Source: Escherichia phage fBC-Eco01. Taken from it: 43,466 nucleotides of DNA. The stretch is from the sequence record OM272052.1. The stretch is one strand, 5' to 3'. The notes beneath the pieces are model-generated. The model was not told the DNA's origin. It did not search any database and worked only from the letters and a program-made list of their open reading frames with translations. Both the position numbers and the translations under genes were made by a program. Positions within the stretch are counted from its first letter, which is position 1; each line of letters opens with the position of its first letter. This document shows, in pieces, positions 3,341 to 23,234 of the stretch.

Positions 3341-3346
3341 AGAAAA

Positions 3347-6036: not shown

Positions 6037-6063
6037 GACGGCCTCCTCGGTTCGATAGAATGA

Positions 6064-6092: not shown

Positions 6093-6134
6093 ACTATTTG
6101 TTTATGTATTCCAGTTATTCCACTCAATTGTAAA

Positions 6135-6187: not shown

Positions 6188-6193
6188 CCACCT

Positions 6194-6394: not shown

Positions 6395-6410
6395 TCGAGA
6401 AAGGGGAAAC

Positions 6411-6797: not shown

Positions 6798-6906
6798 CGA
6801 CGCCGATGGGGATTTAGCTATCGACGTTCAGAACGCCGAATGTGCACGGCAACTGAGACTGAAAGTGTTCATGTTGCAGGATTACGTGAGGAATATTCTG
6901 GAATAG
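6643..6906 (+). CDS. o-spanin (Rz1-like lipoprotein, overlapped with i-spanin)
   Basis: GTG start; signal peptide with lipobox LASC followed by Pro-rich region; starts inside and runs past the i-spanin ORF. Confidence 0.55.
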   Translation: MKSLSTLKRLAAACALSMMLASCSSPAPSPMPIPSPDTTMMQPPCKLAPPSSDADGDLAIDVQNAECARQLRLKVFMLQDYVRNILE

Positions 6907-6916
6907 TTGCCTTGCA

Positions 6917-6940
6917 TGTTGGAATAATTTATTCTTGACA
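6917..6940 (+). repeat. TGTTGGAATAA-N-TATTC-TTGAC motif copy 2
   Basis: TGTTGGAATAATTTATTCTTGACA upstream of scaffold gene. Confidence 0.3.
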
Positions 6941-6988
6941 TGTAAATCCGGGTGGCCCGGGTTCCAACGTCCAGGGGACATACTGACT

Positions 6989-7690: not shown

Positions 7691-7692
7691 TA

Positions 7693-8742: not shown

Positions 8743-8759
8743 GGTTAAGATATAATCGA

Positions 8760-8786
8760 GAGGGACTTCGGTCCCTCTTTTCATTT
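8760..8786 (+). terminator. intrinsic terminator after capsid gene
   Basis: GAGGGAC-TTCG-GTCCCTC hairpin followed by TTTTCATTT. Confidence 0.6.
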
Positions 8787-8801
8787 ACTAAGAGGTAAAT
8801 T

Positions 8802-9101
8802 ATGGCCAATACCGGAAAAGGCTTGCCGCGCAGCCTTCAGAATGTCGACTTCGGCGACTTTGATATCCCAGTAACGCCGGCTACTACCAGCGTAGTTGGT
8901 GGGGTTAAAAAGTCAGCTACTGTAGCCGCGCCTGCGGCCATTACCGCTGGTGCGAGGGTGCAGTCCGCCGCGGCTCCAACTAAGCCAGAGTTCGACGCCC
9001 TTGTAGCGGAGTACAACAAACTCCGAACTGATGTTACCGCGCTGCGCACTACCGTAGCAGATCTGTTGACTGCGCTTAAAAACGCAGGGACCGTAAGCTA
9101 A
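8802..9101 (+). CDS. hypothetical structural protein
   Basis: 99 aa, RBS AAGAGG upstream; Ala/Thr-rich; located in head gene block. Confidence 0.55.
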   Translation: MANTGKGLPRSLQNVDFGDFDIPVTPATTSVVGGVKKSATVAAPAAITAGARVQSAAAPTKPEFDALVAEYNKLRTDVTALRTTVADLLTALKNAGTVS

Positions 9102-9113
9102 AGGAGCTTAAAA

Positions 9114-9341
9114 ATGGTTGATGTAATTAAACGTCGTATTACCGGTGTTTCCGCCGATACCGTAGGCGCTAAAATCGACATGGCAAATATCTCACCAGCA
9201 TCTTTTTCTACCCCACTTGCCACTACCACTACCTATGCTAAAGCATCGACCACTACCGCCGATTCTGGCACGTATAAAGTGGTTGTTGACGATGTGTATG
9301 GTAATATTATCTCCAGCAGCACCGTAGCAACTGTGTCTTAA
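9114..9341 (+). CDS. hypothetical structural protein (Thr-rich, possible Ig-like)
   Basis: 75 aa, RBS AAGGAG upstream. Confidence 0.5.
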   Translation: MVDVIKRRITGVSADTVGAKIDMANISPASFSTPLATTTTYAKASTTTADSGTYKVVVDDVYGNIISSSTVATVS

Positions 9342-9377
9342 TACAACGGCCCTTCGGGGCCGTAATAAGGAAAGGTC

Positions 9378-9557
9378 ATGGCAGATAATTACGTAATCCG
9401 CGAAAAGTACACCCACGTTGATATTGTTGACGGTCAGGTAATGCCGGTTCGCGGTGTTGTAGAAGCGGATGAACTGGTTGCGACTCAACCGGACAACGAA
9501 GAAGCGCACAACAACGGCGGTGGTACTAAGCGTCGTCGCCGTAAGTCAGAGGGATAA
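9378..9557 (+). CDS. hypothetical small protein (59 aa)
   Basis: ATG with RBS AAGGAAAGG; basic C-terminus KRRRRK; below the 60-aa ORF-track cut-off. Confidence 0.4.
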   Translation: MADNYVIREKYTHVDIVDGQVMPVRGVVEADELVATQPDNEEAHNNGGGTKRRRRKSEG

Positions 9558-9560
9558 TTT

Positions 9561-10073
9561 ATGCCGCTAATCGTGGAAACTGGGGTGATCGTCCCAAATG
9601 CCGACAGTTACATTAGTCTGGCTGACGCCCGCGCGTTAGCGGCTAATTATGGCCTTGAGCTGCCGGAAGACGATACCGCAGCAGAGGTGGCCTTACGCAA
9701 CGGTGCTACTTATGTAGGGCTTGCAGAACCGCAGATGTGCGGTCGTCGAGTATCCGCCGAACAGTCTCTTGCATACCCCCGCACCGGCGTTACGTTAAAC
9801 GGGTTCCCGGTGGCCAACAACGCCATTCCGAAACAGGTGATTCTTGCGCAGGTAATCGCTGCCGCTACATATGGCGAGGGCACCGAAGTCCGGGCTAACT
9901 CAGACGGCCGCGCCGTGCAGACTGAGCGTGTCGAGGGTGCGGTAACAGTGACCTACTTCAACAATGGCAACAGTGGCGCTACGACCGCGATTACCGCTGC
10001 TGACGACGCTTTACGCCCGTTATTGTGTGGTGGTCTTAACAATGGTTTCTCGTTTAACGTGTACCGGGGTTAA
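9561..10073 (+). CDS. head-tail connector / adaptor protein (gp6-like, putative)
   Basis: 170 aa; position after capsid genes; N-terminal segment resembling head-tail adaptor proteins. Confidence 0.5.
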   Translation: MPLIVETGVIVPNADSYISLADARALAANYGLELPEDDTAAEVALRNGATYVGLAEPQMCGRRVSAEQSLAYPRTGVTLNGFPVANNAIPKQVILAQVIAAATYGEGTEVRANSDGRAVQTERVEGAVTVTYFNNGNSGATTAITAADDALRPLLCGGLNNGFSFNVYRG

Positions 10074-10075
10074 AA

Positions 10076-10690
10076 ATGGCGAAGACTAAATCAGAGATAT
10101 TCACGCTAATCGGTTCCGAGCTACCGGACAACACGACCGGACTTATTACGCCTGCGAAGTTACGCATGGTGCTAACACAGATGGCGGACTCACCTATTTA
10201 CGCCACTCCCGGTGTTAAAGAGGTTGAAGTTCTCCGCGCTGCGTCGACAGTAGCGCAAGCGCCTACCGCAGTAGATACGGCGTTGCAGGTATCGTTCGGC
10301 TCTGCTCAGGGTAGTGCATCTGACCCGGTAATGATTAATGCTGCGGGGCTGGTTACGTTCAACACCGCGGGTAACTACGCCGTTCGCATCAAGTTACAGG
10401 CAGGCCGCACTGGTGCTAGCGGAACCTCTATCTTGCTATCGCGCATTCTGGTTAATGGCGCACAATACGGCTCGCCAGCCGCTACGAAACTGGTAAGCGC
10501 GGATACTACAATTCCTATTGAGTCTCGTGTTGCTATTAACCCGACCGCAGGCCAGACGTTTGCCGTTCAGATTATACGGGATAGCGCCGGGAGTAACTTC
10601 GGCGGCGTATACCCACAAGCCGCTACCGTAACTGCATGGGGTACAGCGCCGTCCGCGCTATTGGTTATTTCGAGACTGGAGGCCGCCTGA
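10076..10690 (+). CDS. hypothetical structural protein
   Basis: 204 aa ORF in structural block, tightly packed with neighbours. Confidence 0.55.
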   Translation: MAKTKSEIFTLIGSELPDNTTGLITPAKLRMVLTQMADSPIYATPGVKEVEVLRAASTVAQAPTAVDTALQVSFGSAQGSASDPVMINAAGLVTFNTAGNYAVRIKLQAGRTGASGTSILLSRILVNGAQYGSPAATKLVSADTTIPIESRVAINPTAGQTFAVQIIRDSAGSNFGGVYPQAATVTAWGTAPSALLVISRLEAA

Positions 10691-10784
10691 TGAATAAGTT
10701 CACATGTGGTGTAGTTTTTGGTTTTCTTACCGCGGTAGCCTTGCACAGTTACGGTGTTCTTTTGACGCTGCAAGAGGTGCTAAA

Positions 10785-11144
10785 ATGAACACCGCTTTCA
10801 GTAAACGTATGCAAGGCGTCGGTACACGCCTGCTAACCAAATTCGGTAGCACGGTATCTCTTGTTCGCGCTGGCTCGAAAGTGTGGGATGAAGTTCTCGG
10901 TGAGTATGTCCGGTCCGCGGATGAAGTGCTGCCGTTGAAAGCTGTTCCGGTTCCTGTTAACGCAGGACTGGTGAACGGTACGACGATTCAGGCGGGCGAC
11001 ATGATTGCTAAAGCGGATTGCAGTGTCGTCCCGAAAATGGAAGACAAGGTGCAATTCGGCGGCGAGCAATGGTCTGTCGTAGCTATCGAGAAGAAGATGG
11101 TTAACAATGATGTCGTGGCCTACTTTATTCAGGTGAGAAAATGA
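10785..11144 (+). CDS. head-tail joining protein (putative)
   Basis: internal ATG 10785 with RBS AAGAGGTG chosen over the track start 10704; 119 aa. Confidence 0.5.
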   Translation: MNTAFSKRMQGVGTRLLTKFGSTVSLVRAGSKVWDEVLGEYVRSADEVLPLKAVPVPVNAGLVNGTTIQAGDMIAKADCSVVPKMEDKVQFGGEQWSVVAIEKKMVNNDVVAYFIQVRK

Positions 11145-11536
11145 GTTTCGCGCTTGATGTCTCTAAGTTCGTGGAAAAGGCGAAGAAGAATCCTGAGAAG
11201 GTGATGCGTCAGGTGTCTATCAAGCTGTTTTCCGCTATCATAAAGGCTAGTCCAGTGGACACCGGCCGCTTTCGTATGAACTGGATGGCGTCTGGTGGTA
11301 CTTCTGCTTCCGGGATTACGGACGCCACCGATAAATCAGGAAACACGGCAACCGGAAACGCTACAAGTTTCGTACTGAAAGCCGCAGACTGGCACGAGTT
11401 CACGCTGACAAATAATCTGCCGTATGCACAACGGCTGGAGTATGGCTGGTCGCAGCAAGCGCCACAAGGATTTGTCCGGGTGAATGTGTCCCGCTTCCAG
11501 CAACTCATTAACGAAGAAGCCAACAAGGTGAAATGA
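11141..11536 (+). CDS. tail completion protein (HK97 gp10-like)
   Basis: 131 aa; motif PVDTGRFRMNW resembling the HK97 gp10 family DTGxLRxS signature; ATGA overlap with upstream gene. Confidence 0.55.
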   Translation: MSFALDVSKFVEKAKKNPEKVMRQVSIKLFSAIIKASPVDTGRFRMNWMASGGTSASGITDATDKSGNTATGNATSFVLKAADWHEFTLTNNLPYAQRLEYGWSQQAPQGFVRVNVSRFQQLINEEANKVK

Positions 11537-11949
11537 TGGGCTACTTTGAGGACTTAACCAAAGCATTTGATGTGCCGCTGGTAGCCTTCGGAACAACCAA
11601 CGGCATCAAGGTCTCGCTTGAAAACATCGACGCGCCGACGTCAACCGATACGCCGTATCTGGCAAGTTACATGTTACTTGCGGATACAGAACAGGCAGAT
11701 TTGTTCTTCACAGAACAACGCTCAGGTGTTTATCAGGTCGACATTAACTACGCATCGGTGAAAGGTAGCGCGCCAATCAATAAAATGGCAGACTTACTTA
11801 ACACGGCGTTTAAAGCAGGTAAGTCATTTTCGCGTAACGACATCTGCGCCGAGGTTCAATCGGTTAGCCTGGGGCCGCTGATTGTAGAAAACGGATGGGC
11901 CAAACGACCATTGTCAATTAACTTTATTGCATTCACCAAGAGGCTGTGA
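11533..11949 (+). CDS. tail terminator-like protein (putative)
   Basis: 138 aa, overlaps neighbours by 4 nt, directly precedes major tail protein. Confidence 0.45.
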   Translation: MMGYFEDLTKAFDVPLVAFGTTNGIKVSLENIDAPTSTDTPYLASYMLLADTEQADLFFTEQRSGVYQVDINYASVKGSAPINKMADLLNTAFKAGKSFSRNDICAEVQSVSLGPLIVENGWAKRPLSINFIAFTKRL

Positions 11950-11951
11950 AT

Positions 11952-13118
11952 ATGGCTACAACTCCTTTTAAGGGCGCGAATACCGCGCAATTCTATGTGG
12001 CGGAAGTGACCCCTGGCGTAACACCGACTAACCCGGTCTGGTCGCCGTTGCGTAACACTGGCGGTGTTCCCGCGGTAACCCGCGATGCGCTGACTTCCAA
12101 CGAACTCGACGGCAGCAGAGAAACCACATCCATCCGCACCGGTAACAAACAGGTTAGCGGGGAGTACGCCATCGAACTTAGCTCACGTAGCCAGGATGAT
12201 TTCCTTGCGGGTGCTATGACTTCTACGTGGCAGGACGGGGTAGAGATTACGGGTGCTGAAATTACGGTCGCTCCAGCAGGTAAAACATTCACCCGCGCTG
12301 CCGGTAGCTTCATTACTGACGGTGTAGAGGTTGGCGACCTGATTGCATTCACCGACTTAACCGGCGACAACGCAAAACCGTTTATCGTGACCGCGGTCGA
12401 GGCGCTCGTAGTAACAGGCGCAGGCATTCAGCACACGCTGACAGCAGAGACAAAAACCAGTAAGGCTAAGACCGGGGATAAACTGGAAACCGGTAACGCA
12501 TGTAAGACGTTCTCTATCCTGACATGGTTCAAAGGACAGTGCGGGAACCCTGACGCGTACATGTTGACCAAAGGCGTGGAAATCTCCGGTTTTACTATCG
12601 AGCAGGCCGTGAACGCGATGGTGACAGGCAGCTTCCCGTTCATCGGTCTGAGTCAGGAAATTCTTACCGCGCCGCCAGCAGGTTCCGACTTCTCCCAGGT
12701 TACGTTCACCGATGAGCCGTTCTCGTCTGTAGATGTGTCTGTGTTCGACGGCTCTACTCCGTTGCGTTGCGATACTCTTACCATCACCAACGACAACGGC
12801 GCATCCGCTCAGTTTGAACTAGGGAACAGTAGCGTTGCGTTCGTGGAACGTGGTCGCGCAGCTAACACCTTCTCCATCTCTGGGAAGCTGTACGACATGG
12901 CGATGATTCAGAAGTTTATCAACGAGCAGCAGGTAGAGATTAACTCTATTCTGGCGGGGGTGAACGGGGCTATGTCTTTCAGTTTGAAACGCGCAGAACT
13001 TACGGCTGTTACGCCAGAAATATCTGGCCCGGAATCAATTACGCAAAGCATAGAAGGACAGTCCACAGGCAATCAATATCAATCTTCTATTGTTATCCAG
13101 CGTATCACCTACGCATAA
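11952..13118 (+). CDS. major tail protein (putative)
   Basis: ATG 11952 with RBS AAGAGG at 8 nt; 389 aa; last gene before terminator and tail chaperone/tape measure genes. Confidence 0.55.
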   Translation: MATTPFKGANTAQFYVAEVTPGVTPTNPVWSPLRNTGGVPAVTRDALTSNELDGSRETTSIRTGNKQVSGEYAIELSSRSQDDFLAGAMTSTWQDGVEITGAEITVAPAGKTFTRAAGSFITDGVEVGDLIAFTDLTGDNAKPFIVTAVEALVVTGAGIQHTLTAETKTSKAKTGDKLETGNACKTFSILTWFKGQCGNPDAYMLTKGVEISGFTIEQAVNAMVTGSFPFIGLSQEILTAPPAGSDFSQVTFTDEPFSSVDVSVFDGSTPLRCDTLTITNDNGASAQFELGNSSVAFVERGRAANTFSISGKLYDMAMIQKFINEQQVEINSILAGVNGAMSFSLKRAELTAVTPEISGPESITQSIEGQSTGNQYQSSIVIQRITYA

Positions 13119-13122
13119 AACT

Positions 13123-13147
13123 AAGGCCCCGAAAGGGGCCTTTTTCT
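13123..13147. terminator. bidirectional intrinsic terminator
   Basis: AGGCCCC-GAAA-GGGGCCT hairpin with A-run upstream and T-run downstream; ends both the + tail transcript and the - accessory operon. Confidence 0.6.
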
Positions 13148-13320
13148 TATTCCTTCAATTGCATAGGGTAGAAGTTAACGAGTTCTCCTTTATCCCGAAG
13201 CCGTGAATATTCATCTAACGCATCTTCCCGGCTACTTACAGCATAGATATCATTCCACTCGTCCCATTCTTCGTCATATACACGGATTACGTATATTGTT
13301 TTCATTACATTCTCACTCAT
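13147..13320 (-). CDS. hypothetical protein (accessory operon gene 5)
   Basis: internal ATG 13320 or 13305 preferred over track start 13362 to avoid a 50-nt overlap; acidic, W-rich small protein. Confidence 0.4.
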   Translation of the reverse strand: MSENVMKTIYVIRVYDEEWDEWNDIYAVSSREDALDEYSRLRDKGELVNFYPMQLKE

Positions 13321-13543
13321 CAATGTTGCTTCGATACTCCCGTAACTTCTCCAGACTTTCAATTGCTTCCGCTAAGTCGGTTCCGGTGTCCTTGTGCCCG
13401 CGAAGGCCCATACACAACAGCTTCTTCAATGCGTGCTGTAGCGCCGGGTCCCGGATATCGAAGGCGCGGAGCACATCATAAACATCTACTGTCATAGTGC
13501 TGCCGTGGGTATTTGTCATTGTGCGGTTGTATTTATTTGTCAC
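13313..13543 (-). CDS. hypothetical protein (accessory operon gene 4)
   Basis: 76 aa; GTG start with weak RBS; motif VDVYDVLRAF...ALKKLL; family not identified. Confidence 0.45.
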   Translation of the reverse strand: MTNKYNRTMTNTHGSTMTVDVYDVLRAFDIRDPALQHALKKLLCMGLRGHKDTGTDLAEAIESLEKLREYRSNIDE

Positions 13544-13733
13544 TGTTAACTCTCTTAAATCGGGCTATGCCTGACTCGTTAATGCTGCCTATTTCAAAGA
13601 AGCTGCGATATTTAGGCGAATACATTCTTACGTCGCCGTTCTCTAGGGCGACCCCTTCATATACAGCGCCTACTTCGAATCCATTTTTCTCCGCGTACGG
13701 ACTCACATCGGTGCATTCATACATATCTTTCAT
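13533..13733 (-). CDS. hypothetical protein (accessory operon gene 3)
   Basis: 66 aa; ATG overlaps upstream stop (translational coupling); RBS GGAG. Confidence 0.5.
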   Translation of the reverse strand: MKDMYECTDVSPYAEKNGFEVGAVYEGVALENGDVRMYSPKYRSFFEIGSINESGIARFKRVNSDK

Positions 13734-14860
13734 CCCAGCATCTCCGGTGAAATAGTTAAACGTGCGACCTCGCCATATTCGGCACTATAGGTAATTACAT
13801 TTGCGCTACGGCCTGACATCCATCCACCGCGCGAGGCGTAGGCGTCTTTAGCCGCCAGGGTGCGGTGTTGCTCAACAATCATGTTACGGCTTTCTACAAT
13901 CTTCTGGTGGTGCAGATGGCCTACGTGGGCGTAGCTGTAAACACTCTCGCCGAACGCTTTACGGAACTTGGCAATCATTACCGGTTCGATAGCGTCGAAT
14001 CGCGCCTTATGCCCGTGGTGAAAGAACAGCGTAGTTTTGCCGTGTTGGACCATCTTGTAAACATCCGGCGACGTATCGACGAACACACGCGGCTCATTGT
14101 CGTACAGCGTACTAAACATCTCAGCTAACCAAATCATTCCGCTTTCGTCGTGGTTCCCTTGCACGATAAGCAAGCGAACAGATTTATGCTTAACCAGCGC
14201 CATGTCAACAACACGTCGTACCATACGAATCATGTAGCGCACCAGTTTCTGATAGCGAGTATCGGCGTCCAATACATGACCACTCGCTGGCGTAACCGCA
14301 TCCAGACTATCGAAGTGCGCGAAGTCACCCAGCAGGTTAATAACCCCAGTTCCTGCATCTGGTGCTTTCTGAAACGCCGCATCGAACCATCGGGAGAACA
14401 GGTCTTCCGCAATCTTCATATCCCAGTCGTCGCCGCTCTCGTCAGCCCAGGCCAGCATACCAAGATGGAAATCAGATACCGTGTACAGATTGAGTAGTTT
14501 ATCGTCGCGTTTGGCTCGAGTCGCTTTAACCGGCGCAACTGGCGTAATCTCCGACTTCATTCCTTCGATCACGGCTTTCATTAACTCGACCTGACGTTCG
14601 GCGTCGGTGTCTGTCTTAACCCATTGCAACTTAGTGTTGCCGAACTCGTCCACCAGTGACGACGTTCCTTTAATTTTGTAGCCGTCCGGGACAAGATGGC
14701 TAACGTCACGACCGTGACCTACGCCTTTCTTCGCCAGCTTCGCTTTACGGATACGAATAACTCGGTCTGAGATGCCGTATTTACGGGATATGTCGATAAT
14801 CTTTGTTCCGGCGTTCAATTCTTCCTGTAACTGTTCGTCGGTTATTTTCTTCCGGGCCAT
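13730..14860 (-). CDS. HTH domain - calcineurin-like metallophosphoesterase fusion protein
   Basis: 376 aa; N-terminal helix-turn-helix-like segment (IIDISRKYGISDRVIRIRKAK); phosphoesterase motifs in order DFH, GDFAHFD, GNHDE, GH, GHLHH; RBS GAGGAAG. Confidence 0.75.
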   Translation of the reverse strand: MARKKITDEQLQEELNAGTKIIDISRKYGISDRVIRIRKAKLAKKGVGHGRDVSHLVPDGYKIKGTSSLVDEFGNTKLQWVKTDTDAERQVELMKAVIEGMKSEITPVAPVKATRAKRDDKLLNLYTVSDFHLGMLAWADESGDDWDMKIAEDLFSRWFDAAFQKAPDAGTGVINLLGDFAHFDSLDAVTPASGHVLDADTRYQKLVRYMIRMVRRVVDMALVKHKSVRLLIVQGNHDESGMIWLAEMFSTLYDNEPRVFVDTSPDVYKMVQHGKTTLFFHHGHKARFDAIEPVMIAKFRKAFGESVYSYAHVGHLHHQKIVESRNMIVEQHRTLAAKDAYASRGGWMSGRSANVITYSAEYGEVARLTISPEMLG

Positions 14861-14898
14861 GCTTACTTCCTCGTGTTTAGGATTTGTCCTATACTAGC

Positions 14899-15090
14899 TC
14901 ACTTCTCTTTGACATTCGAGTTGCAAGCCCAGATTAAAATAAATACCCACGGCAGCAGAACCCAGCCGAGAAACAGATTAGCCATGAATATCGCCAGTTT
15001 CGCTTTATGTCCGCGCATATGGGCCACTAAAAACGGGATAAAATAAACTAAAACGATAATGATTAAGAAGAACATAGTAATACCTGTCAT
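14899..15090 (-). CDS. superinfection immunity-like small membrane protein (Imm-like)
   Basis: 63 aa from ATG 15090 with RBS AGGAG; two hydrophobic helices with RGHKAK...NLFLGW...PW motif as I recall it for the Imm-like family. Confidence 0.5.
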   Translation of the reverse strand: MTGITMFFLIIIVLVYFIPFLVAHMRGHKAKLAIFMANLFLGWVLLPWVFILIWACNSNVKEK

Positions 15091-15131
15091 GGTGTAGCTC
15101 CTGTTTGAGTTAACATTGTTGGTGTAAGTGA

Positions 15132-15160
15132 ATAGTATCCTATTATGTTGGGGTGCGCAA
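15132..15160 (-). promoter_or_regulatory. conserved promoter element copy C (TTGCGC-N17-TACTAT, minus-directed)
   Basis: minus-strand reading TTGCGCACCCCAACATAATAGGATACTATTCAC, 28 nt identical to copy D. Confidence 0.5.
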
Positions 15161-15268
15161 GTAATGTGATAGAATAATTTTGCGCCTAGTGTCGCACACG
15201 AAAAGCGGGTGGTTCCCGTCTGGCGCATTTACCATTAACCTGTAACCTCTTAACCAAAGGATTAAAGA

Positions 15269-15685
15269 ATGAAACTTTCTGATTTTTATTACGAAGCTGA
15301 GGCAGAAAAAGGCGCCCGTATGCCGATACCACTGAAAGACGGCACCGATTCAGGGGAGTGGCTGAACGTTGTTTCACCGGAGGCAGACGTTGCTGTTAAA
15401 GCTATGAGGGCGTTTACACTTGCGTACCGCGCGGCATTAGGTAAATTGAAACCGCTTCGCGATAAATGCGAGGAACTGAAAGATTTCTCGGAATACAACA
15501 TCAAGATGGAAGACGCCGCAACGGACCTTAACCGCCAGTTAGCGCTTGAACTGGTTAACGGTTGGAGTCTCGACGATGAATTTAATAAAGAGAACCTGAA
15601 TACTCTTTTCTCACAATATAAACGACTCGCTGAACACGTTGTTGTTTTCCACAATGAACAGCTTCACCAATTGCAGGAAAAGTAG
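15269..15685 (+). CDS. tail assembly chaperone (gpG-like)
   Basis: 138 aa acidic protein immediately upstream of tape measure; RBS AAAGGA; ends at slippery-like GGAAAAG. Confidence 0.6.
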   Translation: MKLSDFYYEAEAEKGARMPIPLKDGTDSGEWLNVVSPEADVAVKAMRAFTLAYRAALGKLKPLRDKCEELKDFSEYNIKMEDAATDLNRQLALELVNGWSLDDEFNKENLNTLFSQYKRLAEHVVVFHNEQLHQLQEK

Positions 15686-15690
15686 ACGCG

Positions 15691-16050
15691 TTGCTCCAGT
15701 TTGCCCGTTGGAACTTCATAACCCGCCACAAACGGCGGGAGTTTGACAGTATCGCCGACGGGCATAAAGCCGCGCTAATTGCTATGGGGGTTATGCAAGA
15801 CGCGCCGGAAGCAACGCAGGACACAGGGCCGGAATGCCCCCCTGAGCTATTAACCACCTTCGAGAAGTACAGGGAAATCAAATTCACCCGCCGAGTGGAC
15901 GATGATGGCATCAAGATGTACCCGCGCGAACAGTTAAGATGGTCGGATTTAGTGGCATACAGCACCGTTTCAGGCCAGAATATAGGCATGTTCGAATCTG
16001 ACATCATCATGAGCTTAGACGCTATTTTCGAGGGTAGAAACGATGGCTGA
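15691..16050 (+). CDS. tail assembly chaperone -1 frame extension (gpT-like, expressed as G-T fusion)
   Basis: ORF in the -1 frame relative to the chaperone, starting right after its stop and overlapping the tape measure start. Confidence 0.45.
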   Translation: MLQFARWNFITRHKRREFDSIADGHKAALIAMGVMQDAPEATQDTGPECPPELLTTFEKYREIKFTRRVDDDGIKMYPREQLRWSDLVAYSTVSGQNIGMFESDIIMSLDAIFEGRNDG

Positions 16051-18379
16051 TGTAGCTAGTTTAGTTGTAAAGGTATCAGAGCAAGGCGCGAAAGCTACAT
16101 CGGACCGTCTTGATAATCTCTCCAAGTCGGCAAAAGTAGCGGGGGCAGCCGTAGCTGGACTCGCTTCAATTGTCGCCGCGACAGCGTACAAGGCCGCACA
16201 GGAACTGGTAGACTCCCAACGGCAACTGGACAAGATGTCCGCCAGCCTGAAAACGCTAACCGGAAGCACGCAGGGGGCAAGACAGGCGTTAAGCATCCTG
16301 CAAGACTTCGCGCGCGACACTCCGTATGGCCTTGAACAGGCGGTAGAGGGATTCCGTAAACTGGTGGCTCTCGGCCTTACCCCCTCAGAAGAAGCGTTGC
16401 GCTCCTATGGCAACACTGCCGCTGCTATGGGTAAAGACCTTAATCAGATGATTGAGGCCGTTGCGGACGCTAGTACATTTGAATTTGAGCGCCTTAAAGA
16501 ATTTGGTATCAAGGCCAAGCAGAACAAAAACGATGTTGAATTTACATTCCAGGGCACCACTACGGTAGTTAAGAAGAGCGCTGCCGACATCGAGCAATAC
16601 CTGCTCAACATTGGTAACGTAAACTTCGCGGGGGCTATGGCGGACCAGGCCAACACACTTAACGGGGCCATCGCCAGTGCCAGCGACTCATGGTCGCAGT
16701 TAAAAATGACACTGGCCACCAGCCTTGATGTTGGTGCTCTTGCGGAACCTATCCGGTACATCGATGATTTAATCCAGGAACTTAACGCACAGGTAGCATC
16801 CGGCGAACTCACCGCTGAGATGCGTATGTGGGGTGACATCGCGTCAGAAGTGGGCAGCGCGATAGAGATGTCGTTCGACGCGGCATTTGGTTTCGTAGGC
16901 GACGCAATAAACGGGCTGAATGAACTTTGGGATTTTAGCAGTAAAAGTATCACCGACAGCGGCGAACAAACGGCGACAACCATCGCGGAATCAGCTGCCG
17001 ATGCGCTCGATTTCATCGCAGAAGAATTTACCGCGATGGAGCGCTTCTTTGAAGATATGGTTAAAGGGGCACAGGACGCTGGCCGGTTGGTGAAAGCTGC
17101 CTTCACACCAGGGGAATCTGTAGACGTAGCAAAAAACATTAACTTCCAGCTAGGGATGGCACTGGATACTCAGCGCGATGTTGCGGACCTGACCCGTAAA
17201 AGTTTCCGCGAACAGGTGGAGGCCCAGCAGAATATCGTCGCGCTTAAACGCGCGGCATATGACATCGACAAAGAAGCTGCTAAGGAAGAAGGGCTTAGTA
17301 AATTTAAGGTAACTGGTACTGGTGGCGGGCCTGAAGATGATAATGCTGGTGCAAAAGCCTCCAAGAAAGCGGCGGACGCGTTCGAGCGCCAGAAGAAAGC
17401 CGCTGAGGATTTCTACTACCAGTCGATTCATCTCAATGATGACGTATTCCAGAAAATAGAAGCCAACCAGGAACAGCAGCTAACCAAGCTACAGGAGTTC
17501 TATGGTAATCAGCTTCTTAGCGACCAGCAGTACGAAAACGCCAAGACGCAGATTATGCTGGAGGCTGACACCGCACGTCAGGAAGAACTTGCCAAGCGAG
17601 AGAAAGAACGACAGGAGAAGAACCAGAAAGGTGAAGACTTCATGGCTCAGATTATGGGTCAGAATGCCGCAGAGCTTGAGCTTCTGGAGATTCAGGAACA
17701 ACAAAAACTGGACGTTGCTGATAGATACCGTGAACAGAATCTGATTAACGAGGAGCAGTACCAGGCAGCGGTTAACGCGATAAACGACCAGTACGCATTG
17801 AAACGTGCCAACGCTACCGGTAACGCTTTTGGCATGATGGCGGACAACATTAAGTCATCGCTAGGCGAGGCGTCCTCCGCGTATAAAGCATTCGCTATCG
17901 CTCAGGCCACAATAGCCACATACACATCCGCCATCGAGGCTTATAAATCTGCGTCCGCGATTCCTATTGTTGGTTGGGTGCTTGGTCCTGTGGCCGCGGC
18001 AGCAGCAGTAGCAGCAGGTCTGGCTAACATCAGCAAGATTCGTTCGGCCCGTGAGCAGGGCGGTAACTTAGCTGCGGGTCAGTTATCCACCATTGCAGAA
18101 CGTAACAAGCCGGAAGTTATTATGCCTGCGGGGGCGTCACGCGTACGTACCGCGGAACAGATGCGCCAGATTATGGGCGAGAACGGCAACAAGTCAGGCG
18201 GTGACAGCGTGACAATCGTCAACAACACCACCGGACGAGTTGATTCCGCCGTTACAGAGCGTGACGACGAAGGGCGGTTACGTGTTATCATCAGTGAAAC
18301 AGTATCGGCGGCGTTACAAGACAGCAACAGTGCAATCTCCAAGTCCCGCCGGGCTACACGAAACCAGCCGGGGTATTAA
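16043..18379 (+). CDS. tape measure protein
   Basis: 778 aa, Ala/Gln/Glu-rich coiled-coil composition, hydrophobic Gly/Ala-rich segment near C-terminus; follows G/GT chaperones. Confidence 0.85.
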   Translation: MADVASLVVKVSEQGAKATSDRLDNLSKSAKVAGAAVAGLASIVAATAYKAAQELVDSQRQLDKMSASLKTLTGSTQGARQALSILQDFARDTPYGLEQAVEGFRKLVALGLTPSEEALRSYGNTAAAMGKDLNQMIEAVADASTFEFERLKEFGIKAKQNKNDVEFTFQGTTTVVKKSAADIEQYLLNIGNVNFAGAMADQANTLNGAIASASDSWSQLKMTLATSLDVGALAEPIRYIDDLIQELNAQVASGELTAEMRMWGDIASEVGSAIEMSFDAAFGFVGDAINGLNELWDFSSKSITDSGEQTATTIAESAADALDFIAEEFTAMERFFEDMVKGAQDAGRLVKAAFTPGESVDVAKNINFQLGMALDTQRDVADLTRKSFREQVEAQQNIVALKRAAYDIDKEAAKEEGLSKFKVTGTGGGPEDDNAGAKASKKAADAFERQKKAAEDFYYQSIHLNDDVFQKIEANQEQQLTKLQEFYGNQLLSDQQYENAKTQIMLEADTARQEELAKREKERQEKNQKGEDFMAQIMGQNAAELELLEIQEQQKLDVADRYREQNLINEEQYQAAVNAINDQYALKRANATGNAFGMMADNIKSSLGEASSAYKAFAIAQATIATYTSAIEAYKSASAIPIVGWVLGPVAAAAAVAAGLANISKIRSAREQGGNLAAGQLSTIAERNKPEVIMPAGASRVRTAEQMRQIMGENGNKSGGDSVTIVNNTTGRVDSAVTERDDEGRLRVIISETVSAALQDSNSAISKSRRATRNQPGY

Positions 18380-18382
18380 CCA

Positions 18383-19795
18383 ATGAGTGATTTGAGATTC
18401 CCTATGTCCCTTCGACCAATAGTGTCGAAGGGGTACTCCCAAACGCGAGGGAGTAATATCTGGCGTACAGAAGTGCAAGGTGGCGTGCCTCGACAGGGGC
18501 GTGATACATACTTCGAACCGGTACCTATTAGCGTTACCCTGGTCGTATCGTCACTAGGCCGTCAGGCTTTCTATAGCTTCCTGAATAACATAGACGGCGG
18601 GGCATCTTCGTTCATCATGCCTCATGATACCGGTTTAGGTATCGAAGACCACCAGGTTCTTATTACGTCTGATATTAGCGACAGCACAGACGACGGCAAG
18701 AACTGGGTCATTACGTTTACGGCTACAGCAGAGCGCACAGCAATTCAGGAAGACACATGTCTTACTAAGAATCTGCCAGATTTGTATGGTTGCTACGGGG
18801 ATTGTCTGGGTAGTTTCCTGAAAATATACGCGAACTATGAGACTACGTTCCCGCGCATCTGGAGCGATGAAGGGCCCGCAGGATACCCGCCGATTAACCT
18901 TCTGGCGTCCGCCCTGGATAGCCGCATTGTGTACGACGGGCCGCAGGTTTATTACATCAATCGCAACGGAAATCTTGTGCAGTCCGCCACTAATGAATGG
19001 CCTCTTACGTTTATTGATGGTGTTGCGGTTGGGCGTGTGCCGCCGGAAAATATGGCGGAAAATATTTTGCCGGATAGCCGTGATTTGAATGGCGCAAATT
19101 GGAATCTTCGCGGTAGGATTATAACGACGCCAAATACTGATATGTTGTTTAACGGTGTTGAGTCTTCTTCTCTTATACCTACCACGGCGACAGGGTCGCA
19201 CTATATAGGAGGTGCTATACCATTAGCACCTATTGGCACAAAATTAACATGCTCTGTCATCGCCAAAGCAAACACGGCATCGACTCTGCAAACTCTATAT
19301 TTTGGCGGATCAACTGGCGTCTCAGAATTGTACGCTAATTTTGACTTGGAAGCCGGGGTCGTTTCCGCAGGAAGTGCAGAGGATAAGTTAATATATCCTC
19401 TTGGTAATGGGTGGTACTACTGTGCCATGTCGGTAGTTATTACCGGCGATATGTCGGTAAATAGACAATTCATAATATCTCCCGCGGCGTCTCCTTCATC
19501 TACAAGACTCGCCTCATTTACAGGGGATGGCGTCCGCGGCATTTTAGTAGCACACTCACAAGTTGAAAAGTCAGAATTCTCCACATCCCCGATAGTAACA
19601 GAAGCATCGCCGGTGGCCAGACCTACAGCAACCGCAAAAGTAGTAATGAACGGTGCAACAAGCATTGATATTACATATTCAGACGGCTCTGTGGTAAACG
19701 TTCAAGCTGTTGATGATTACGCCGCCATCCCCCGAGCGGATTCGGCGTGGGGCAGTAAATATATTACTCGTATTGATTTTAATGTGGACGGTTAA
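18383..19795 (+). CDS. minor tail protein, gpM-like N-terminus with long C-terminal extension
   Basis: N-terminal motifs GYSQ...SVTL...SFL resembling lambda gpM; total 470 aa. Confidence 0.55.
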   Translation: MSDLRFPMSLRPIVSKGYSQTRGSNIWRTEVQGGVPRQGRDTYFEPVPISVTLVVSSLGRQAFYSFLNNIDGGASSFIMPHDTGLGIEDHQVLITSDISDSTDDGKNWVITFTATAERTAIQEDTCLTKNLPDLYGCYGDCLGSFLKIYANYETTFPRIWSDEGPAGYPPINLLASALDSRIVYDGPQVYYINRNGNLVQSATNEWPLTFIDGVAVGRVPPENMAENILPDSRDLNGANWNLRGRIITTPNTDMLFNGVESSSLIPTTATGSHYIGGAIPLAPIGTKLTCSVIAKANTASTLQTLYFGGSTGVSELYANFDLEAGVVSAGSAEDKLIYPLGNGWYYCAMSVVITGDMSVNRQFIISPAASPSSTRLASFTGDGVRGILVAHSQVEKSEFSTSPIVTEASPVARPTATAKVVMNGATSIDITYSDGSVVNVQAVDDYAAIPRADSAWGSKYITRIDFNVDG

Positions 19796-19798
19796 TTT

Positions 19799-20314
19799 AT
19801 GAGCCAGGAATCTGTAGAAGCAGCCTACCGCCGTAAGCTGGCCTCAAATCCCGACGGCGAAATTGACTACACGACGCTGGAGATAGTACACCCGCTTCTT
19901 TCAAAGCGGTATTTGCTTGTGCGCGGAACTTCCGACCTGACGGCGACGTTAGAGACCGGAGAAGTCGTAACGTTTGAGGCTACCCCTATGGAGGCTAAAG
20001 GGGCCGCCAACAATAACGACATGGACCAGCGGGCGTCGTTCGCATTACCTGATATTGGTAACCAGTTAGATGATGAGATGGACAGGATACCGCCTGATAA
20101 TACCGTGCTACCTAAATTCATATTCCGCCGTTTTGTTGGTACTGATTTGTCTTACCCGGCTGATGGGCCTGTTGTGTACGAGTTGCAGTCGATAAACCAG
20201 GAAAAGGGGCTATTTACCGCCGACGTTGGCGTTCCTATGTTGAACCAAAGGGCCACTGGTGAACTAATGACCCCTTCAGTAATCCCATTGTTACGGGGCG
20301 TTTTGTCCACATGA
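19799..20314 (+). CDS. minor tail protein (gpL-like, putative)
   Basis: 171 aa; position between gpM-like and NlpC/P60 tail genes. Confidence 0.5.
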   Translation: MSQESVEAAYRRKLASNPDGEIDYTTLEIVHPLLSKRYLLVRGTSDLTATLETGEVVTFEATPMEAKGAANNNDMDQRASFALPDIGNQLDDEMDRIPPDNTVLPKFIFRRFVGTDLSYPADGPVVYELQSINQEKGLFTADVGVPMLNQRATGELMTPSVIPLLRGVLST

Positions 20315-20676
20315 ATATTAATTCTTATACAGGGTTGCCGTACGACTTTCGCCGTCGTAATTGCTGGCACCATGTCCGTAACGTTCGTGCGGATGTAGGC
20401 CTCTTTACGCCTGAGTTTAACGTCGCTTCGCCAACACAGATTAACGACGCCTTCGAAGAAGGCCATAAAGATACTAAAGGCCTTGTACGCGTAGAAACTC
20501 CGCAAAACTTCGATGCCGTGCTGATGGCAACACGGCACAGAAACCGTGTAATCTGGCACGCCGGAGTATACTATGACGGTATGGTTAGTCATTGCGAGCT
20601 GGCGAGTCGCCAGGTACGGTTAGACCGTCTGGAAGACTTGCGCGAAACTTATGCGGAGATAGAATTTTGGCGCTGA
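20311..20676 (+). CDS. tail protein with NlpC/P60-like cysteine peptidase motifs (gpK-like)
   Basis: 121 aa; candidate catalytic Cys in RRNCWHH and His in IWHAGVYY. Confidence 0.6.
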   Translation: MNINSYTGLPYDFRRRNCWHHVRNVRADVGLFTPEFNVASPTQINDAFEEGHKDTKGLVRVETPQNFDAVLMATRHRNRVIWHAGVYYDGMVSHCELASRQVRLDRLEDLRETYAEIEFWR

Positions 20677-23222
20677 CATTACATTACACCCGTAACGAAG
20701 ACGGTACTTTCGACCGCGAACGGCACAACGTACCGCCGATGGAATACGTCGTCGCTAACATCCCCGACGGGGTGCCTGTACGTATTTACCGTGGCGAGAT
20801 CGGCGAGGACACGGAAGTAACTGAAGATTTCGAAGCGCTGAAAGAAGACGATGTTTTCCATATTATCGAAGGCGCTGGTGGCGGTGGCGGTTTTCTGGGT
20901 AAACTCCTGGACCCTTTGGGTGTGCTTAAATTTGTTACCAAGTTGATTTCTCCGTCGCAGAAAACGCCTAAAACGAGTTTAGCGAACCAGCAGGCTGAGT
21001 CCCCCAACAACAGCCTGACGGACCGAAACAATAAACCCCGTCCATATGAACGGTCGTATGATATTTGCGGCAGAGTCCAGACTATCCCTAATGACCTCAT
21101 GACTACCTATAAAATATTCGATGAATCTGGTCGCATTATTGAATACGGATACTACGATGCCGGTCGTGGGTATCTGGACATCAAGGCCGAAGATATTACC
21201 GACGGCGATACTAAGGTACAGGAGATTACGGGGACCTCTGTCGCGGTGTACGCGCCGTTTACATCCCCCAACAATACAAATACCCCGCAGCTTCTGGTGG
21301 GGGAACCTATCAATCAGAATCTTTATATAACTATCGCGTCTAATGAAGTAGATGGAGCCGTTCTTAAAGCCCAGAACGATATTCGGGTCAACCCAAGCGA
21401 CACGGGCCGCGTGAGATATGACTCTGCTACAAAAATTGGATACCTGTATGACGACACGGGGGATTCTGGCTTCGCGGAAATATTATCTGTTGGTGACACC
21501 GCGTCGTTCAATAACTTTGACGTTCCGGACGTAACAAATACCAACGGCAACTTTCGTGTTCTTTATGTCGATAACTTCGAGCTGCGGGTCGACACCGGCG
21601 GCGCGTCTAATTGGGCTGCTTTAGGCTCAACCACCTATTCACTTTCCCAGAGAAGTGACACGTGGGTAGGCCCCGTGGATACGTATGAAAGAACATTAAC
21701 CGACTGGACCACCTTAAACCGCCTGGAAGTTGAACGCGTAGTAGCCAACATCGCTGCCGCTAACGGTATGTATAAAGACAACGGCAGTAAATTGCGTACG
21801 TCGGTAACTATTGAACTCCAATACCAACTACTCGATGAAACCGGTGCCCCATACGGGAGTATCTATTCAAAACAGGCAGTTATATCTGGTCGGTCCGCCG
21901 ACTACACCGGAGTTACTATTTACGCCGACTTGCCCGTTCGGTCGAAAGTTAGGGTACGCGCCCGCCGTGTAACTAATCTGGACCTCGATTTCGAGGGTAC
22001 CGTGGTAGATGAGGTTTCCTACATCAACCTTTACGGGCAGGTCCGCGACACTACGCCGCATTACGGCAATCGTACTACCGTACACTCTGCACGTAAGCAG
22101 ACGCCGCGGGCCGCAGAGATTAAGCAACCGCAACTACGTATGGTCGCGACGGAGATGGTGTACAAATACCTCGGCAACGGCGTATTTGACGCGGTTATGA
22201 CACCTAATACCCAAGCCGTTCAGTCATTAATACGCCTGGCGCGGGACCCGGTAGTAGGAAACCTCAATCTCACCAAGGCTAACATGGATAAATTGCTAGC
22301 GACTCAGACCGAGATTGAGAATTATTTCGGTAACGTGGAGGCGGGTCAATTCTGCTACACTTTTGACGACTATAAAATGACCATGCAGGATATCATCAGC
22401 ACAATAGCCGATGCTATTTTCTGCACTCCATATCGTAAAGGGCAAGACATATTACTGGATTTCGAGCGCCCGCGTATGGGGCCGGAAATGGTATTCACAC
22501 ATCGAAGTAAGACAACAGCTTCGGAAAAGTGGACGCGCACATTCAACGACGCTCAGGTATACGATAGTCTTAAGTTCTCCTACATCGACCCAGATACTAA
22601 CGTAAAAGAGACCATCAGCATTCCCGCCGAGGGCGGTGTTAACACAGAAACGTATGACTCTAAAGGTATACGTAATTATCGTCAGGCGTACTGGGCGGCG
22701 TACCGTCGGTACCAGAAGAACCTGTTGAAGAAGGTGACGGTATCATTCACGGCGACAGAAGAAGGGGTTTTTGTGCTTCCAGGACGGGCAATAAGCGTAG
22801 TTAAAGGCTCGCGAGTAGCACCTCAAGATGGTTATGTCGTTGCCGTTAATGGGCTTACCCTTACTCTTTCTCAGCCGGTTACGTTTACTCCGGGGGATGA
22901 CCACTCACTGATTCTTAAGAAGAGAGACGGCGGAGTTCAAAGTGTTGCTGTTGTGCCTGGAAGCCACGACCGTGAAGTGGTTATGCTCTCTGCGCCTCAA
23001 GAGGCGATATACACAGGGAATAGCGCACTAAAAACTGAGTTTTCATTCGGTAACGAAGCAAGGCATAATGCTCAGATGATTCTTGTTTCTACAGTTGACC
23101 CCGGAGACGACAGAACGGTTAAGATTACCGGGATTAACTATGAAGCAGATTTCTATAAATACGACGGCGTCGCGCCATACGGCAGCGGTTTCTCCGACGG
23201 ATTCAGCGATGGTTTTAATTAA
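20667..23222 (+). CDS. tail tip / host specificity protein (gpI-like N-terminal domain fused to gpJ-like body)
   Basis: TTG 20667 with RBS GGAGA at 7 nt; Gly-run GAGGGGGFLGK as in gpI-type tail assembly proteins; 851 aa. Confidence 0.6.
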   Translation: MALTLHYTRNEDGTFDRERHNVPPMEYVVANIPDGVPVRIYRGEIGEDTEVTEDFEALKEDDVFHIIEGAGGGGGFLGKLLDPLGVLKFVTKLISPSQKTPKTSLANQQAESPNNSLTDRNNKPRPYERSYDICGRVQTIPNDLMTTYKIFDESGRIIEYGYYDAGRGYLDIKAEDITDGDTKVQEITGTSVAVYAPFTSPNNTNTPQLLVGEPINQNLYITIASNEVDGAVLKAQNDIRVNPSDTGRVRYDSATKIGYLYDDTGDSGFAEILSVGDTASFNNFDVPDVTNTNGNFRVLYVDNFELRVDTGGASNWAALGSTTYSLSQRSDTWVGPVDTYERTLTDWTTLNRLEVERVVANIAAANGMYKDNGSKLRTSVTIELQYQLLDETGAPYGSIYSKQAVISGRSADYTGVTIYADLPVRSKVRVRARRVTNLDLDFEGTVVDEVSYINLYGQVRDTTPHYGNRTTVHSARKQTPRAAEIKQPQLRMVATEMVYKYLGNGVFDAVMTPNTQAVQSLIRLARDPVVGNLNLTKANMDKLLATQTEIENYFGNVEAGQFCYTFDDYKMTMQDIISTIADAIFCTPYRKGQDILLDFERPRMGPEMVFTHRSKTTASEKWTRTFNDAQVYDSLKFSYIDPDTNVKETISIPAEGGVNTETYDSKGIRNYRQAYWAAYRRYQKNLLKKVTVSFTATEEGVFVLPGRAISVVKGSRVAPQDGYVVAVNGLTLTLSQPVTFTPGDDHSLILKKRDGGVQSVAVVPGSHDREVVMLSAPQEAIYTGNSALKTEFSFGNEARHNAQMILVSTVDPGDDRTVKITGINYEADFYKYDGVAPYGSGFSDGFSDGFN

Positions 23223-23234
23223 AGAGGACTCTAT

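What the first reader, a model, noticed from the sequence alone, without database searches (positions are those of the whole stretch)
14899..15090. Imm-like small membrane protein as first gene of the accessory operon
The 63-aa, two-helix membrane protein with RGHKAK and NLFLGW...PW motifs resembles superinfection-immunity (T4 Imm-type) proteins that block DNA entry of incoming phage. Its position as promoter-proximal gene of an antisense moron fits an exclusion role.
Basis: inference. Interest (0 to 1): 0.5.

Follow-up and report, generated by a model that had tools for sequence, protein, structure and literature searches.

The report
T4 Imm-family superinfection immunity gene
This small gene of a lytic E. 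coli phage (genus Kagunavirus) encodes a true relative of the phage T4 Imm membrane protein, which stops a second phage from injecting its DNA. The same gene is already annotated that way in hundreds of related phage genomes, so the finding is correct but ordinary.

Summary
Window 14899..15090 (-) is a 63-aa ORF with an AGGAG ribosome-binding site, two hydrophobic helices and the stated motifs. It is under purifying selection (dN/dS 0.02-0.23).

Pfam PF14373 Imm_superinfect scores 51.6 bits against a cutoff of 27.9. PHROG 1039 'immunity to superinfection' gives E 1.4e-23. BLASTP against T4 Imm gives 30% identity and E 2e-12. The two residues needed for T4 Imm activity, R33 and W50, are conserved here as R26 and W43.

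The upstream in-frame ATG at 15228 is not the start. It exists only in the closest relatives, and that frame is closed in all the others. The stretch is instead occupied by a conserved structured RNA motif (Rfam int-alpA-like) on the opposite strand.

The window is a Kagunavirus (Guernseyvirinae). An identical protein is already annotated 'putative immunity protein', and the gene is a conserved feature of the subfamily rather than a sporadic moron.

The most likely mechanism, by analogy with T4, is that the protein sits in the inner membrane and blocks DNA translocation by binding the incoming phage's tape measure protein. No Guernseyvirinae homologue has been tested.

Verdict: already known, low interest.

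The parts
14899..15090 (-). imm-like CDS, 63 aa plus stop; member of the T4 Imm family (PF14373)
15098..15102 (-). Shine-Dalgarno AGGAG, 7 nt upstream of the ATG at 15090
   Evidence: Read from the sequence. SD-like purine runs sit at equivalent spacing in all relatives.
15132..15170 (-). Two overlapping candidate sigma-70 promoters for the minus-strand operon, both unverified. P1 is ATCACA-17-CATAAT at 15170..15142. P2 is TTGCGC-17-TACTAT at 15160..15132.
   Evidence: P1 comes from the consensus scan, whose site count is not above chance. P2 was read from the alignment: TTGC is invariant in 33 distinct loci, and Jerseyvirus loci have TTGCAT-17-TATTAT. This is inference only.
13730..14860 (-). 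Second operon gene, 376 aa: an N-terminal HTH-like region plus a metallophosphoesterase (PHROG 704 'DNA repair exonuclease')
   Evidence: sub-threshold Metallophos hits; PHROG 704, E 1.7e-165. The start lies 38 nt after the imm stop, with no terminator-like site between them.
13147..13733 (-). Three small overlapping ORFs of unknown function that complete the minus-strand cluster (13533..13733, 13313..13543, 13147..13362)
   Evidence: The same genes are annotated as hypothetical proteins in phage Schulenburg.
13123..13142 (.). Bidirectional terminator-like hairpin (8-bp stem with 6 GC pairs, T-runs on both strands) between the tail tube gene and the end of the minus-strand cluster
16043..18379 (+). 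Tape measure protein gene, 778 aa. It is the inferred target class of Imm by analogy with T4. Its strongest hydrophobic segment is at aa 638-665 (nt about 17954..18037).
   Evidence: TMP_3 is sub-threshold at 35.6 bits. The homologous gene is annotated as tape measure protein in phage Schulenburg. The target role is inference from bioRxiv 10.64898/2026.03.06.709160. No sequence similarity to T4 gp29 was found.

Best explanation
The ORF encodes a 63-residue inner-membrane protein that is a true member of the T4 Imm / PF14373 superinfection immunity family. It is made by a virulent Kagunavirus. Once made in an infected cell, it most likely inserts into the cytoplasmic membrane as a helical hairpin, with the basic R26-x-H28-K-x-K loop on the cytoplasmic side. 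It would then stop later-arriving phages, at least those of its own kind, from moving their DNA across the inner membrane. It would do this by binding the incoming phage's tape measure protein and blocking formation of the membrane conduit, as has just been shown for T4 Imm and gp29. What is shown here: the gene is real and under constraint, translation starts at the ATG at 15090, the protein belongs to the family, and the residues equivalent to T4 R33 and W50 are conserved. What is inferred: membrane topology, timing of expression, the exclusion phenotype, and the tape measure protein as target.
For: - Family match: PF14373 scores 51.6 bits against a cutoff of 27.9 over the full profile. T4 Imm scores 58.2 bits on the same profile. 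PHROG 1039 'immunity to superinfection' gives E 1.4e-23.
- Direct similarity: BLASTP to T4 Imm gives 30% identity over 54 aa, E 2e-12.
- Conserved residues: all 12 near-invariant family positions are present (Y16, F17, P19, A23, R26, H28, I34, N38, G42, W43, W48, W54), judged against 150 diverse homologues.
- Functional residues: T4 R33 and W50 lower exclusion when changed to alanine (bioRxiv 10.64898/2026.03.06.709160). They align with R26 and W43 here.
- Shape: two hydrophobic helices in hydropathy and in the AlphaFold2 model.
- Constraint: dN/dS is 0.02-0.23.
- Possible target: the phage's own tape measure protein has a strong hydrophobic segment at aa 638-665. The 600-680 region stays 76-96% identical in every locus where it could be aligned, even where the rest of the protein is only about 50% identical.
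- Public annotation: an identical protein and hundreds of homologues are already annotated as superinfection immunity protein. The Schulenberg genome announcement notes the similarity to T4 Imm (PMC6763661).
Against: - No member of the family other than T4 Imm has a tested function, as far as I could find.
- The family is very large: 7,673 cluster representatives at E<=1e-3. Transferring the function to all of them is not safe.
- The window's tape measure protein has no detectable sequence similarity to T4 gp29 (best E 0.55). The T4 binding surface, a helical bundle domain, therefore cannot be recognised here.
- The only transcriptome of a Kagunavirus places the annotated immunity gene among late-peaking genes (PMC12645636). 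That is not what an exclusion gene of a lytic phage would be expected to show. However, that experiment ran 120 min over several infection cycles and is weak evidence.
- The promoter matches are no better than chance.
- The N-terminal variant of Imm does not co-vary with the type of tape measure protein.
Confidence: 0.65

Rival explanations
1. The protein is a PF14373 member, but its job in this siphovirus is not exclusion of incoming DNA. It might instead modulate lysis timing or membrane integrity, or protect the infected cell envelope in another way.
For: The family has 7,673 cluster representatives, only one of which (T4 Imm) has been characterised. A late expression peak was reported for the annotated homologue in phage K1B4 (PMC12645636). 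The tape measure protein shows no similarity to T4 gp29.
Against: Both residues that matter for T4 Imm exclusion are conserved, along with the whole family core. The phage already has a complete lysis cassette: two holin-family ORFs at 40596..41169 (PHROGs 2359 and 2508) and a lysozyme at 41096..41635 (PF00959, 94.5 bits).
Confidence: 0.22
2. Translation starts at the upstream in-frame ATG at 15228, giving a 109-aa protein with a soluble N-terminal extension, as annotated in the phage Schulenburg record.
For: The frame is open for 46 codons upstream in the window and in L003-L005. GenBank MK931438 annotates the 330-nt form.
Against: In L006-L008, whose proteins are 98% identical, the frame is closed 26 codons upstream and has no start. 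All 29 more distant loci also lack the distal ATG. Those that have any upstream in-frame start have it only 5 or 9 codons before the conserved ATG. The ATG at 15090 with its SD is conserved. Other records annotate the 63-aa form (H31). The 15179..15243 part of the 'extension' is a structured RNA motif on the opposite strand that is conserved at the DNA level. The extension adds nothing to the Pfam score: 49.8 bits with it, 51.6 bits without it.
Confidence: 0.03
3. It is a class II-type holin or antiholin: a small two-transmembrane-helix protein with a short charged C-terminus.
For: Its size, two hydrophobic helices and KEK tail resemble small holins.
Against: There is no holin family hit in Pfam or PHROGs, and the best hits are the Imm families. 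It lies about 25 kb from the endolysin, which has its own two holin-family ORFs beside it.
Confidence: 0.03

Closest known systems
Phage T4 Imm (UniProt P08986; NC_000866 26373..26624), founding member of Pfam PF14373 Imm_superinfect
   Same: Both match the same Pfam domain over its full length. They share 30% identity over 54 aa. The Y-x-x-P, A-x-x-R and W...W...W core is the same, including the equivalents of T4 R33 and W50. Both are small hydrophobic proteins encoded by virulent coliphages. Both have an annotation ambiguity over an upstream alternative start: 94 vs 83 aa in T4, 109 vs 63 aa here.
   Different: This protein is 20 residues shorter: it has a shorter N-terminus and lacks the polar C-terminal tail of T4 Imm. 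It is closer to the family consensus than T4 Imm is, with H28, N38 and G42 where T4 has S, S and N. It has P47 where the family and T4 have G. It is encoded by a siphovirus whose tape measure protein is unrelated in sequence to T4 gp29. It sits inside the tail gene module rather than among early replication genes. Its function is untested.
'Superinfection immunity protein' genes annotated in Guernseyvirinae (e.g. Escherichia phages vB-Eco-KMB36, Schulenburg, K1G; Salmonella phages SETP3, FSL SP-101)
   Same: This is the same gene at the same locus, between the tail tube gene and the tail assembly chaperone gene on the opposite strand. The protein is 100% identical in KMB36 (H31).
   Different: Nothing of substance differs. 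Some records use the unsupported 109-aa start, and some leave the gene unannotated or label it hypothetical.
HK97 gp15 (and, from my own knowledge, the lactococcal/streptococcal Sie2009 and Ltp proteins): superinfection exclusion proteins that act on the tape measure protein
   Same: The proposed working principle is the same: a phage-encoded membrane protein that stops DNA entry of siphoviruses through the tape measure protein. HK97 gp15 is cited this way in the T4 preprint.
   Different: These are functional analogues only. I made no sequence comparison, and I know of no family relationship. They are prophage-expressed, whereas this phage is lytic.

Membership tests
T4 Imm / Pfam PF14373 Imm_superinfect | Full-length match to the family HMM above the curated gathering score | tested here: met
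   51.6 bits against 27.9, profile positions 1-42 of 42 on residues 15-56. T4 Imm scores 58.2 bits on residues 22-63.
T4 Imm / Pfam PF14373 Imm_superinfect | Direct sequence similarity to the characterised founding member, T4 Imm | tested here: met
   BLASTP gives 30% identity, 57% positives over 54 aa, no gaps, E 2e-12.
T4 Imm / Pfam PF14373 Imm_superinfect | Near-invariant core residues of the family, including the two shown to matter for T4 Imm activity (R33, W50) | tested here: met
   Y16, F17, P19, A23, R26, H28, I34, N38, G42, W43, W48 and W54 are all present. Each is 92-100% conserved among 150 diverse homologues. R26 corresponds to T4 R33 and W43 to T4 W50.
T4 Imm / Pfam PF14373 Imm_superinfect | Small protein built of hydrophobic membrane helices | tested here: met
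   GRAVY is 1.32, with hydrophobic segments at 4-22 and 35-53. AlphaFold2 gives helices 2-25 and 29-61 at pLDDT 77.7.
T4 Imm / Pfam PF14373 Imm_superinfect | Inner-membrane location with the N-terminus in the periplasm | not testable with these tools
   Only the positive-inside argument is available: R26, K29 and K31 lie in the loop. The T4 topology is taken from the preprint's citation.
T4 Imm / Pfam PF14373 Imm_superinfect | Excludes superinfecting phage by blocking DNA translocation; binds the tape measure protein | not testable with these tools
   This needs plating, DNA-entry and co-purification experiments. The window's tape measure protein has a hydrophobic segment but no similarity to gp29.
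T4 Imm / Pfam PF14373 Imm_superinfect | Expressed early in infection | tested here: inconclusive
   Sigma-70-like sites lie upstream, but their number is not above chance. RNA-seq of Kagunavirus K1B4 lists the annotated homologue as late-peaking in a multi-cycle design.
Moron (independently transcribed accessory insert in a late operon) | Own promoter and terminator, inserted within a structural operon | tested here: inconclusive
   The cluster is antisense within the tail module, and a terminator-like hairpin is present. The promoter is only a candidate.
Moron (independently transcribed accessory insert in a late operon) | Sporadic presence among otherwise related phages | tested here: not met
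   The gene is found in 380 phage records across Kagunavirus and Jerseyvirus. [quoted passage not shown] The locus matches in 457 records.
Class II holin | Holin family match and linkage to the endolysin gene | tested here: not met
   There is no holin hit. The holin-family ORFs and the lysozyme lie at 40596..41635.

The most novel reading that the evidence does not exclude
The Guernseyvirinae Imm is a working exclusion factor whose target is the conserved hydrophobic C-terminal region (about aa 600-680) of the siphovirus tape measure protein encoded 1 kb away. If so, the newly described T4 Imm-TMP mechanism would extend from myoviruses to siphoviruses with unrelated tape measure proteins. It would also suggest that the very large PF14373 family (7,673 clusters) consists of general blockers of tape-measure conduits, giving cross-exclusion across the whole subfamily.
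Probability: 0.4. Interest if true: 0.4.

Novelty: already known. Interest (0 to 1): 0.15.

Why it matters
As a discovery it matters little. The gene and its likeness to T4 Imm are already in GenBank annotations and in genome papers.

It has some practical value:
- It settles the start codon, where public records disagree (63 aa, not 109 aa).
- It shows that the residues needed for T4 Imm activity are conserved.
- It points to a small, genetically tractable lytic siphovirus in which to test whether blocking the tape measure protein by Imm-family proteins is general. Kagunaviruses are in the BASEL collection.

This also bears on phage cocktails, because co-applied Kagunavirus and Jerseyvirus phages might exclude one another.

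Tried and rejected
- Foldseek search of the AlphaFold2 model against BFVD gave no matches. A 63-residue helical hairpin is too small and generic for this search.
- Sequence search of the PDB gave no hit at E<=1, so no solved structure of a close relative was found by sequence.
- NCBIfam and PADLOC gave no hits for any of the five operon proteins.
- The word-indexed protein search found only 9 close clusters. The exhaustive HMM search was needed to see how broad the family is.
- BLASTP of the window's tape measure protein against T4 gp29 gave nothing significant (best E 0.55). The T4 target domain cannot be mapped onto this phage by sequence.
- I tested whether the Imm N-terminal variant tracks the tape measure protein type, as a sign of co-evolution. 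It does not: L006 and L014 are recombinants.
- The DUF3302 hit was rejected as sub-threshold (24.7 bits against 32) and overlapping the Imm match.
- The consensus promoter scan found 3 sites against 4.0 expected by chance, so promoter assignment rests only on conservation.
- The K1B4 transcriptome paper was read for expression timing, but its design (120 min, several cycles) makes the 'late' label uninformative.
- Low G+C at the locus (0.42-0.43 against about 0.50-0.55 in the flanking windows) was considered as a sign of recent acquisition and rejected. A Phe/Ile/Leu-rich membrane protein plus an intergenic region explains it, and the gene is present across the subfamily.

Full report
**What is there.** On the minus strand, 14899..15090 encodes a 63-residue protein, MTGITMFFLIIIVLVYFIPFLVAHMRGHKAKLAIFMANLFLGWVLLPWVFILIWACNSNVKEK. 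An AGGAG at 15098..15102 lies 7 nt before the ATG. Hydropathy gives two hydrophobic segments, about 4-22 and 35-53, separated by the basic stretch H24-K31, with GRAVY 1.32. An AlphaFold2 model built from a 10-sequence alignment has two helices, 2-25 and 29-61, at mean pLDDT 77.7.

**It is a real, constrained gene.** I fetched 36 related loci from IMG/VR. Nei-Gojobori dN/dS between the window and ten of them is 0.02-0.23. The overlapping + strand ORF at 14873..15046 is therefore best seen as a shadow of this gene.

**Start codon.**
- The distal ATG exists only in the window and its three closest relatives.
- In L006-L008, whose proteins are 98% identical, the frame is closed 26 codons upstream and holds no start.
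- In all 29 more distant loci the distal ATG is also absent. Those with any upstream in-frame start have it only 5 or 9 codons before the conserved ATG.
- The ATG equivalent to 15090 is kept in all Kagunavirus loci. Jerseyvirus loci start four codons further in. Each has its own purine-rich SD at 7-8 nt.
- The extension adds nothing to the Pfam score: 49.8 bits with it, 51.6 bits without it.

The 63-aa form is therefore correct and the long annotation is an error.

The upstream stretch looks conserved because 15179..15243 holds a structured RNA motif on the opposite (+) strand. It matches Rfam RF02996 (int-alpA) at 32.5 bits in the window, below the gathering score of 35.8, with E 2.9e-4. Relatives L009 and L014 score 36.6 bits, above the gathering score. 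Across 11 distinct versions, 95% of cells pair and three pairs change on both sides, against 33-59% paired in the slid controls.

**Which phage.** The 2.2-kb neighbourhood is 95% identical to Escherichia phages Schulenburg and Snoke and matches 457 phage records, all Guernseyvirinae-type (Kagunavirus and Jerseyvirus). The window, at 43.5 kb, has the layout of a nearly complete Kagunavirus genome. A + strand structural module spans 27..25259, a minus-strand module follows, and a lysis cassette sits near the end. Jerseyviruses lack int and xis and behave as lytic phages (PMC8425127). BASEL Kagunavirus isolates have been characterised as O-antigen-dependent small siphoviruses (PMC11990801).

**Family membership.**
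- Pfam PF14373 Imm_superinfect: E 8.7e-14, 51.6 bits (gathering score 27.9), covering the whole 42-position profile.
- PHROG 1039 'immunity to superinfection': E 1.4e-23.
- I fetched T4 imm from NC_000866. T4 Imm scores 58.2 bits on the same profile.
- BLASTP of the two proteins gives 30% identity over 54 ungapped residues, E 2e-12.
- An exhaustive HMM search of 1.84 billion cluster representatives found 7,673 relatives at E<=1e-3 and 239 at E<=1e-10.
- Aligning the best 150 shows twelve near-invariant positions: Y16, F17, P19, A23, R26, H28, I34, N38, G42, W43, W48 and W54. All are present in the window protein. It is closer to the family consensus than T4 Imm is.

**Mechanism.** A 2026 preprint (bioRxiv 10.64898/2026.03.06.709160) reports that T4 Imm co-purifies with a fragment of the T4 tape measure protein gp29. 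It resolves the complex by cryo-EM and shows that R33A and W50A lower exclusion. In my alignments these residues correspond to R26 and W43.

By analogy, the Kagunavirus protein most likely blocks inner-membrane DNA translocation by engaging the tape measure protein of an incoming phage. This is inference, not demonstration.
- In favour: the window's tape measure protein (16043..18379) has one strong hydrophobic segment at aa 638-665. Its 600-680 region stays 76-96% identical in every locus where it could be aligned, even where the rest of the protein is only about 50% identical.
- Against: it has no significant similarity to gp29 (best E 0.55), so the T4 binding domain cannot be recognised. 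The Imm N-terminal variant is not linked to the tape measure protein type.

**Operon and the 'moron' label.** The gene is the first of five close-packed minus-strand ORFs. The 38-nt gap to the next gene has its own SD, and the following genes overlap one another. The cluster ends at a bidirectional terminator-like hairpin at 13123..13142. 'First gene of an antisense cluster' is therefore correct.

Promoter evidence is weak. The scan's single minus-strand site (ATCACA-17-CATAAT, 15170..15142) is within chance expectation. A second candidate (TTGCGC-17-TACTAT, 15160..15132) rests on conservation of TTGC in all loci.

'Moron' is misleading in one respect. The gene is found in 380 phage records and is described as present in all Jerseyviruses. 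It is a fixed feature of the subfamily rather than a sporadic insert. Low G+C at the locus (0.42-0.43) is explained by the Phe/Ile/Leu-rich protein and the intergenic region.

**Rivals.**
- A holin role is unlikely. Two holin-family ORFs (PHROGs 2359 and 2508) and a lysozyme (PF00959) lie at 40596..41635, and the ORF hits no holin family.
- The 109-aa form is rejected, as set out above.
- A non-exclusion role for a PF14373 member cannot be excluded. Only T4 Imm has been characterised. The one Kagunavirus transcriptome lists the annotated homologue as late-peaking, but in a 120-min multi-cycle design (PMC12645636).

**Novelty.**
- An identical protein is annotated 'putative immunity protein' in phage vB-Eco-KMB36, and many relatives carry 'superinfection immunity protein'.
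- The Schulenberg announcement explicitly notes the similarity to T4 Imm (PMC6763661).
- Other papers list the gene as well (PMC5582158; PMC8425127).

What remains open is the experimental test of function in a siphovirus. This analysis adds the corrected start codon, the conserved functional residues, and the neighbouring RNA motif.

Noticed in passing
window 15179..15243 (+), between imm (ATG 15090, -) and the tail assembly chaperone gene (ATG 15269, +): A nearly invariant intergenic element matches Rfam RF02996 int-alpA RNA, a candidate sRNA of unknown function. It scores 32.5 bits in the window (gathering score 35.8, E 2.9e-4) and 36.6 bits in relatives L009 and L014. The structure has a closing stem and two hairpins. 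Across Kagunavirus and Jerseyvirus versions, 95% of cells pair and three pairs change on both sides, including G-U intermediates that pair only on the + strand. It ends about 25 nt before the chaperone gene, so it may be the leader of the chaperone/tape-measure transcript that restarts after the antisense island.
   Followed up: partly
window 15110..15138 (+): A promoter-like site on the + strand (TTAACA-17-TAGTAT) lies inside the imm 5' leader, about 40 nt upstream of the int-alpA-like motif. Together with the terminator at 13123..13142, this suggests that late + strand transcription stops after the tail tube gene and restarts here. It is a consensus match only.
   Followed up: no
imm codons 1-22 versus 23-63 (window 15025..15090 versus 14902..15024); loci L003-L038: The N-terminal helix comes in three discrete variants (MTGITMFF..., MSSLPVSL..., and the Jerseyvirus MSVFIGII...). 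Variants share only 36-41% identity and dS is saturated. The C-terminal 41 residues stay 88-100% identical within Kagunavirus, with dS 0.4-0.9. This looks like a recombination junction inside the gene near codon 22 rather than relaxed selection.
   Followed up: partly
window 15269..18379 (+) and loci L003-L038: The tail assembly chaperone and the first 600 residues of the tape measure protein exist as two main allelic types that are only about 52-54% identical, plus a third type in L030. These types are shuffled relative to the imm type and the phosphoesterase type. Some Jerseyvirus tape measure proteins are 88-90% identical to the window's over residues 1-300. The conserved intergenic element may be where the exchange happens.
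   Followed up: partly
window 13730..14860 (-): The second operon gene encodes a 376-aa protein with an HTH-like N-terminus and a metallophosphoesterase core (GDxxH, GNHD and GHxH motifs are visible). It matches PHROG 704 'DNA repair exonuclease' at E 1.7e-165 but hits Pfam Metallophos only below threshold. Public records name it inconsistently: phosphoesterase, DNA repair exonuclease, 'DNA polymerase II small subunit'. Its role next to imm is unknown.
   Followed up: no
window 13313..13543 (-): This 76-aa ORF matches only the C-terminal ends of much longer PHROG profiles, for example PHROG 2452 positions 150-220 of 235 and PHROG 17613 'ATPase' positions 171-237 of 246. It may be a free-standing copy of a C-terminal domain, or a remnant of a larger gene.
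   Followed up: no
GenBank MK931438 (phage Schulenburg) 15057..15386; locus L001 4278..4607: This public record annotates the imm homologue with the non-conserved upstream start, giving 109 aa. Other records use the 63-aa form, leave the gene unannotated, or call it hypothetical. The T4 preprint reports a similar 94 vs 83 aa ambiguity for T4 imm.
   Followed up: yes
window tape measure protein aa 626-648 (nt about 17918..17986) versus T4 gp29 aa 227-247: A statistically insignificant BLASTP segment (9 of 23 identical, E 27; TxSAIEAxK...) aligns the stretch that leads into and overlaps the start of the strongest hydrophobic segment of each tape measure protein. It is probably chance but could be checked with profile or structure comparison.
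   Followed up: no
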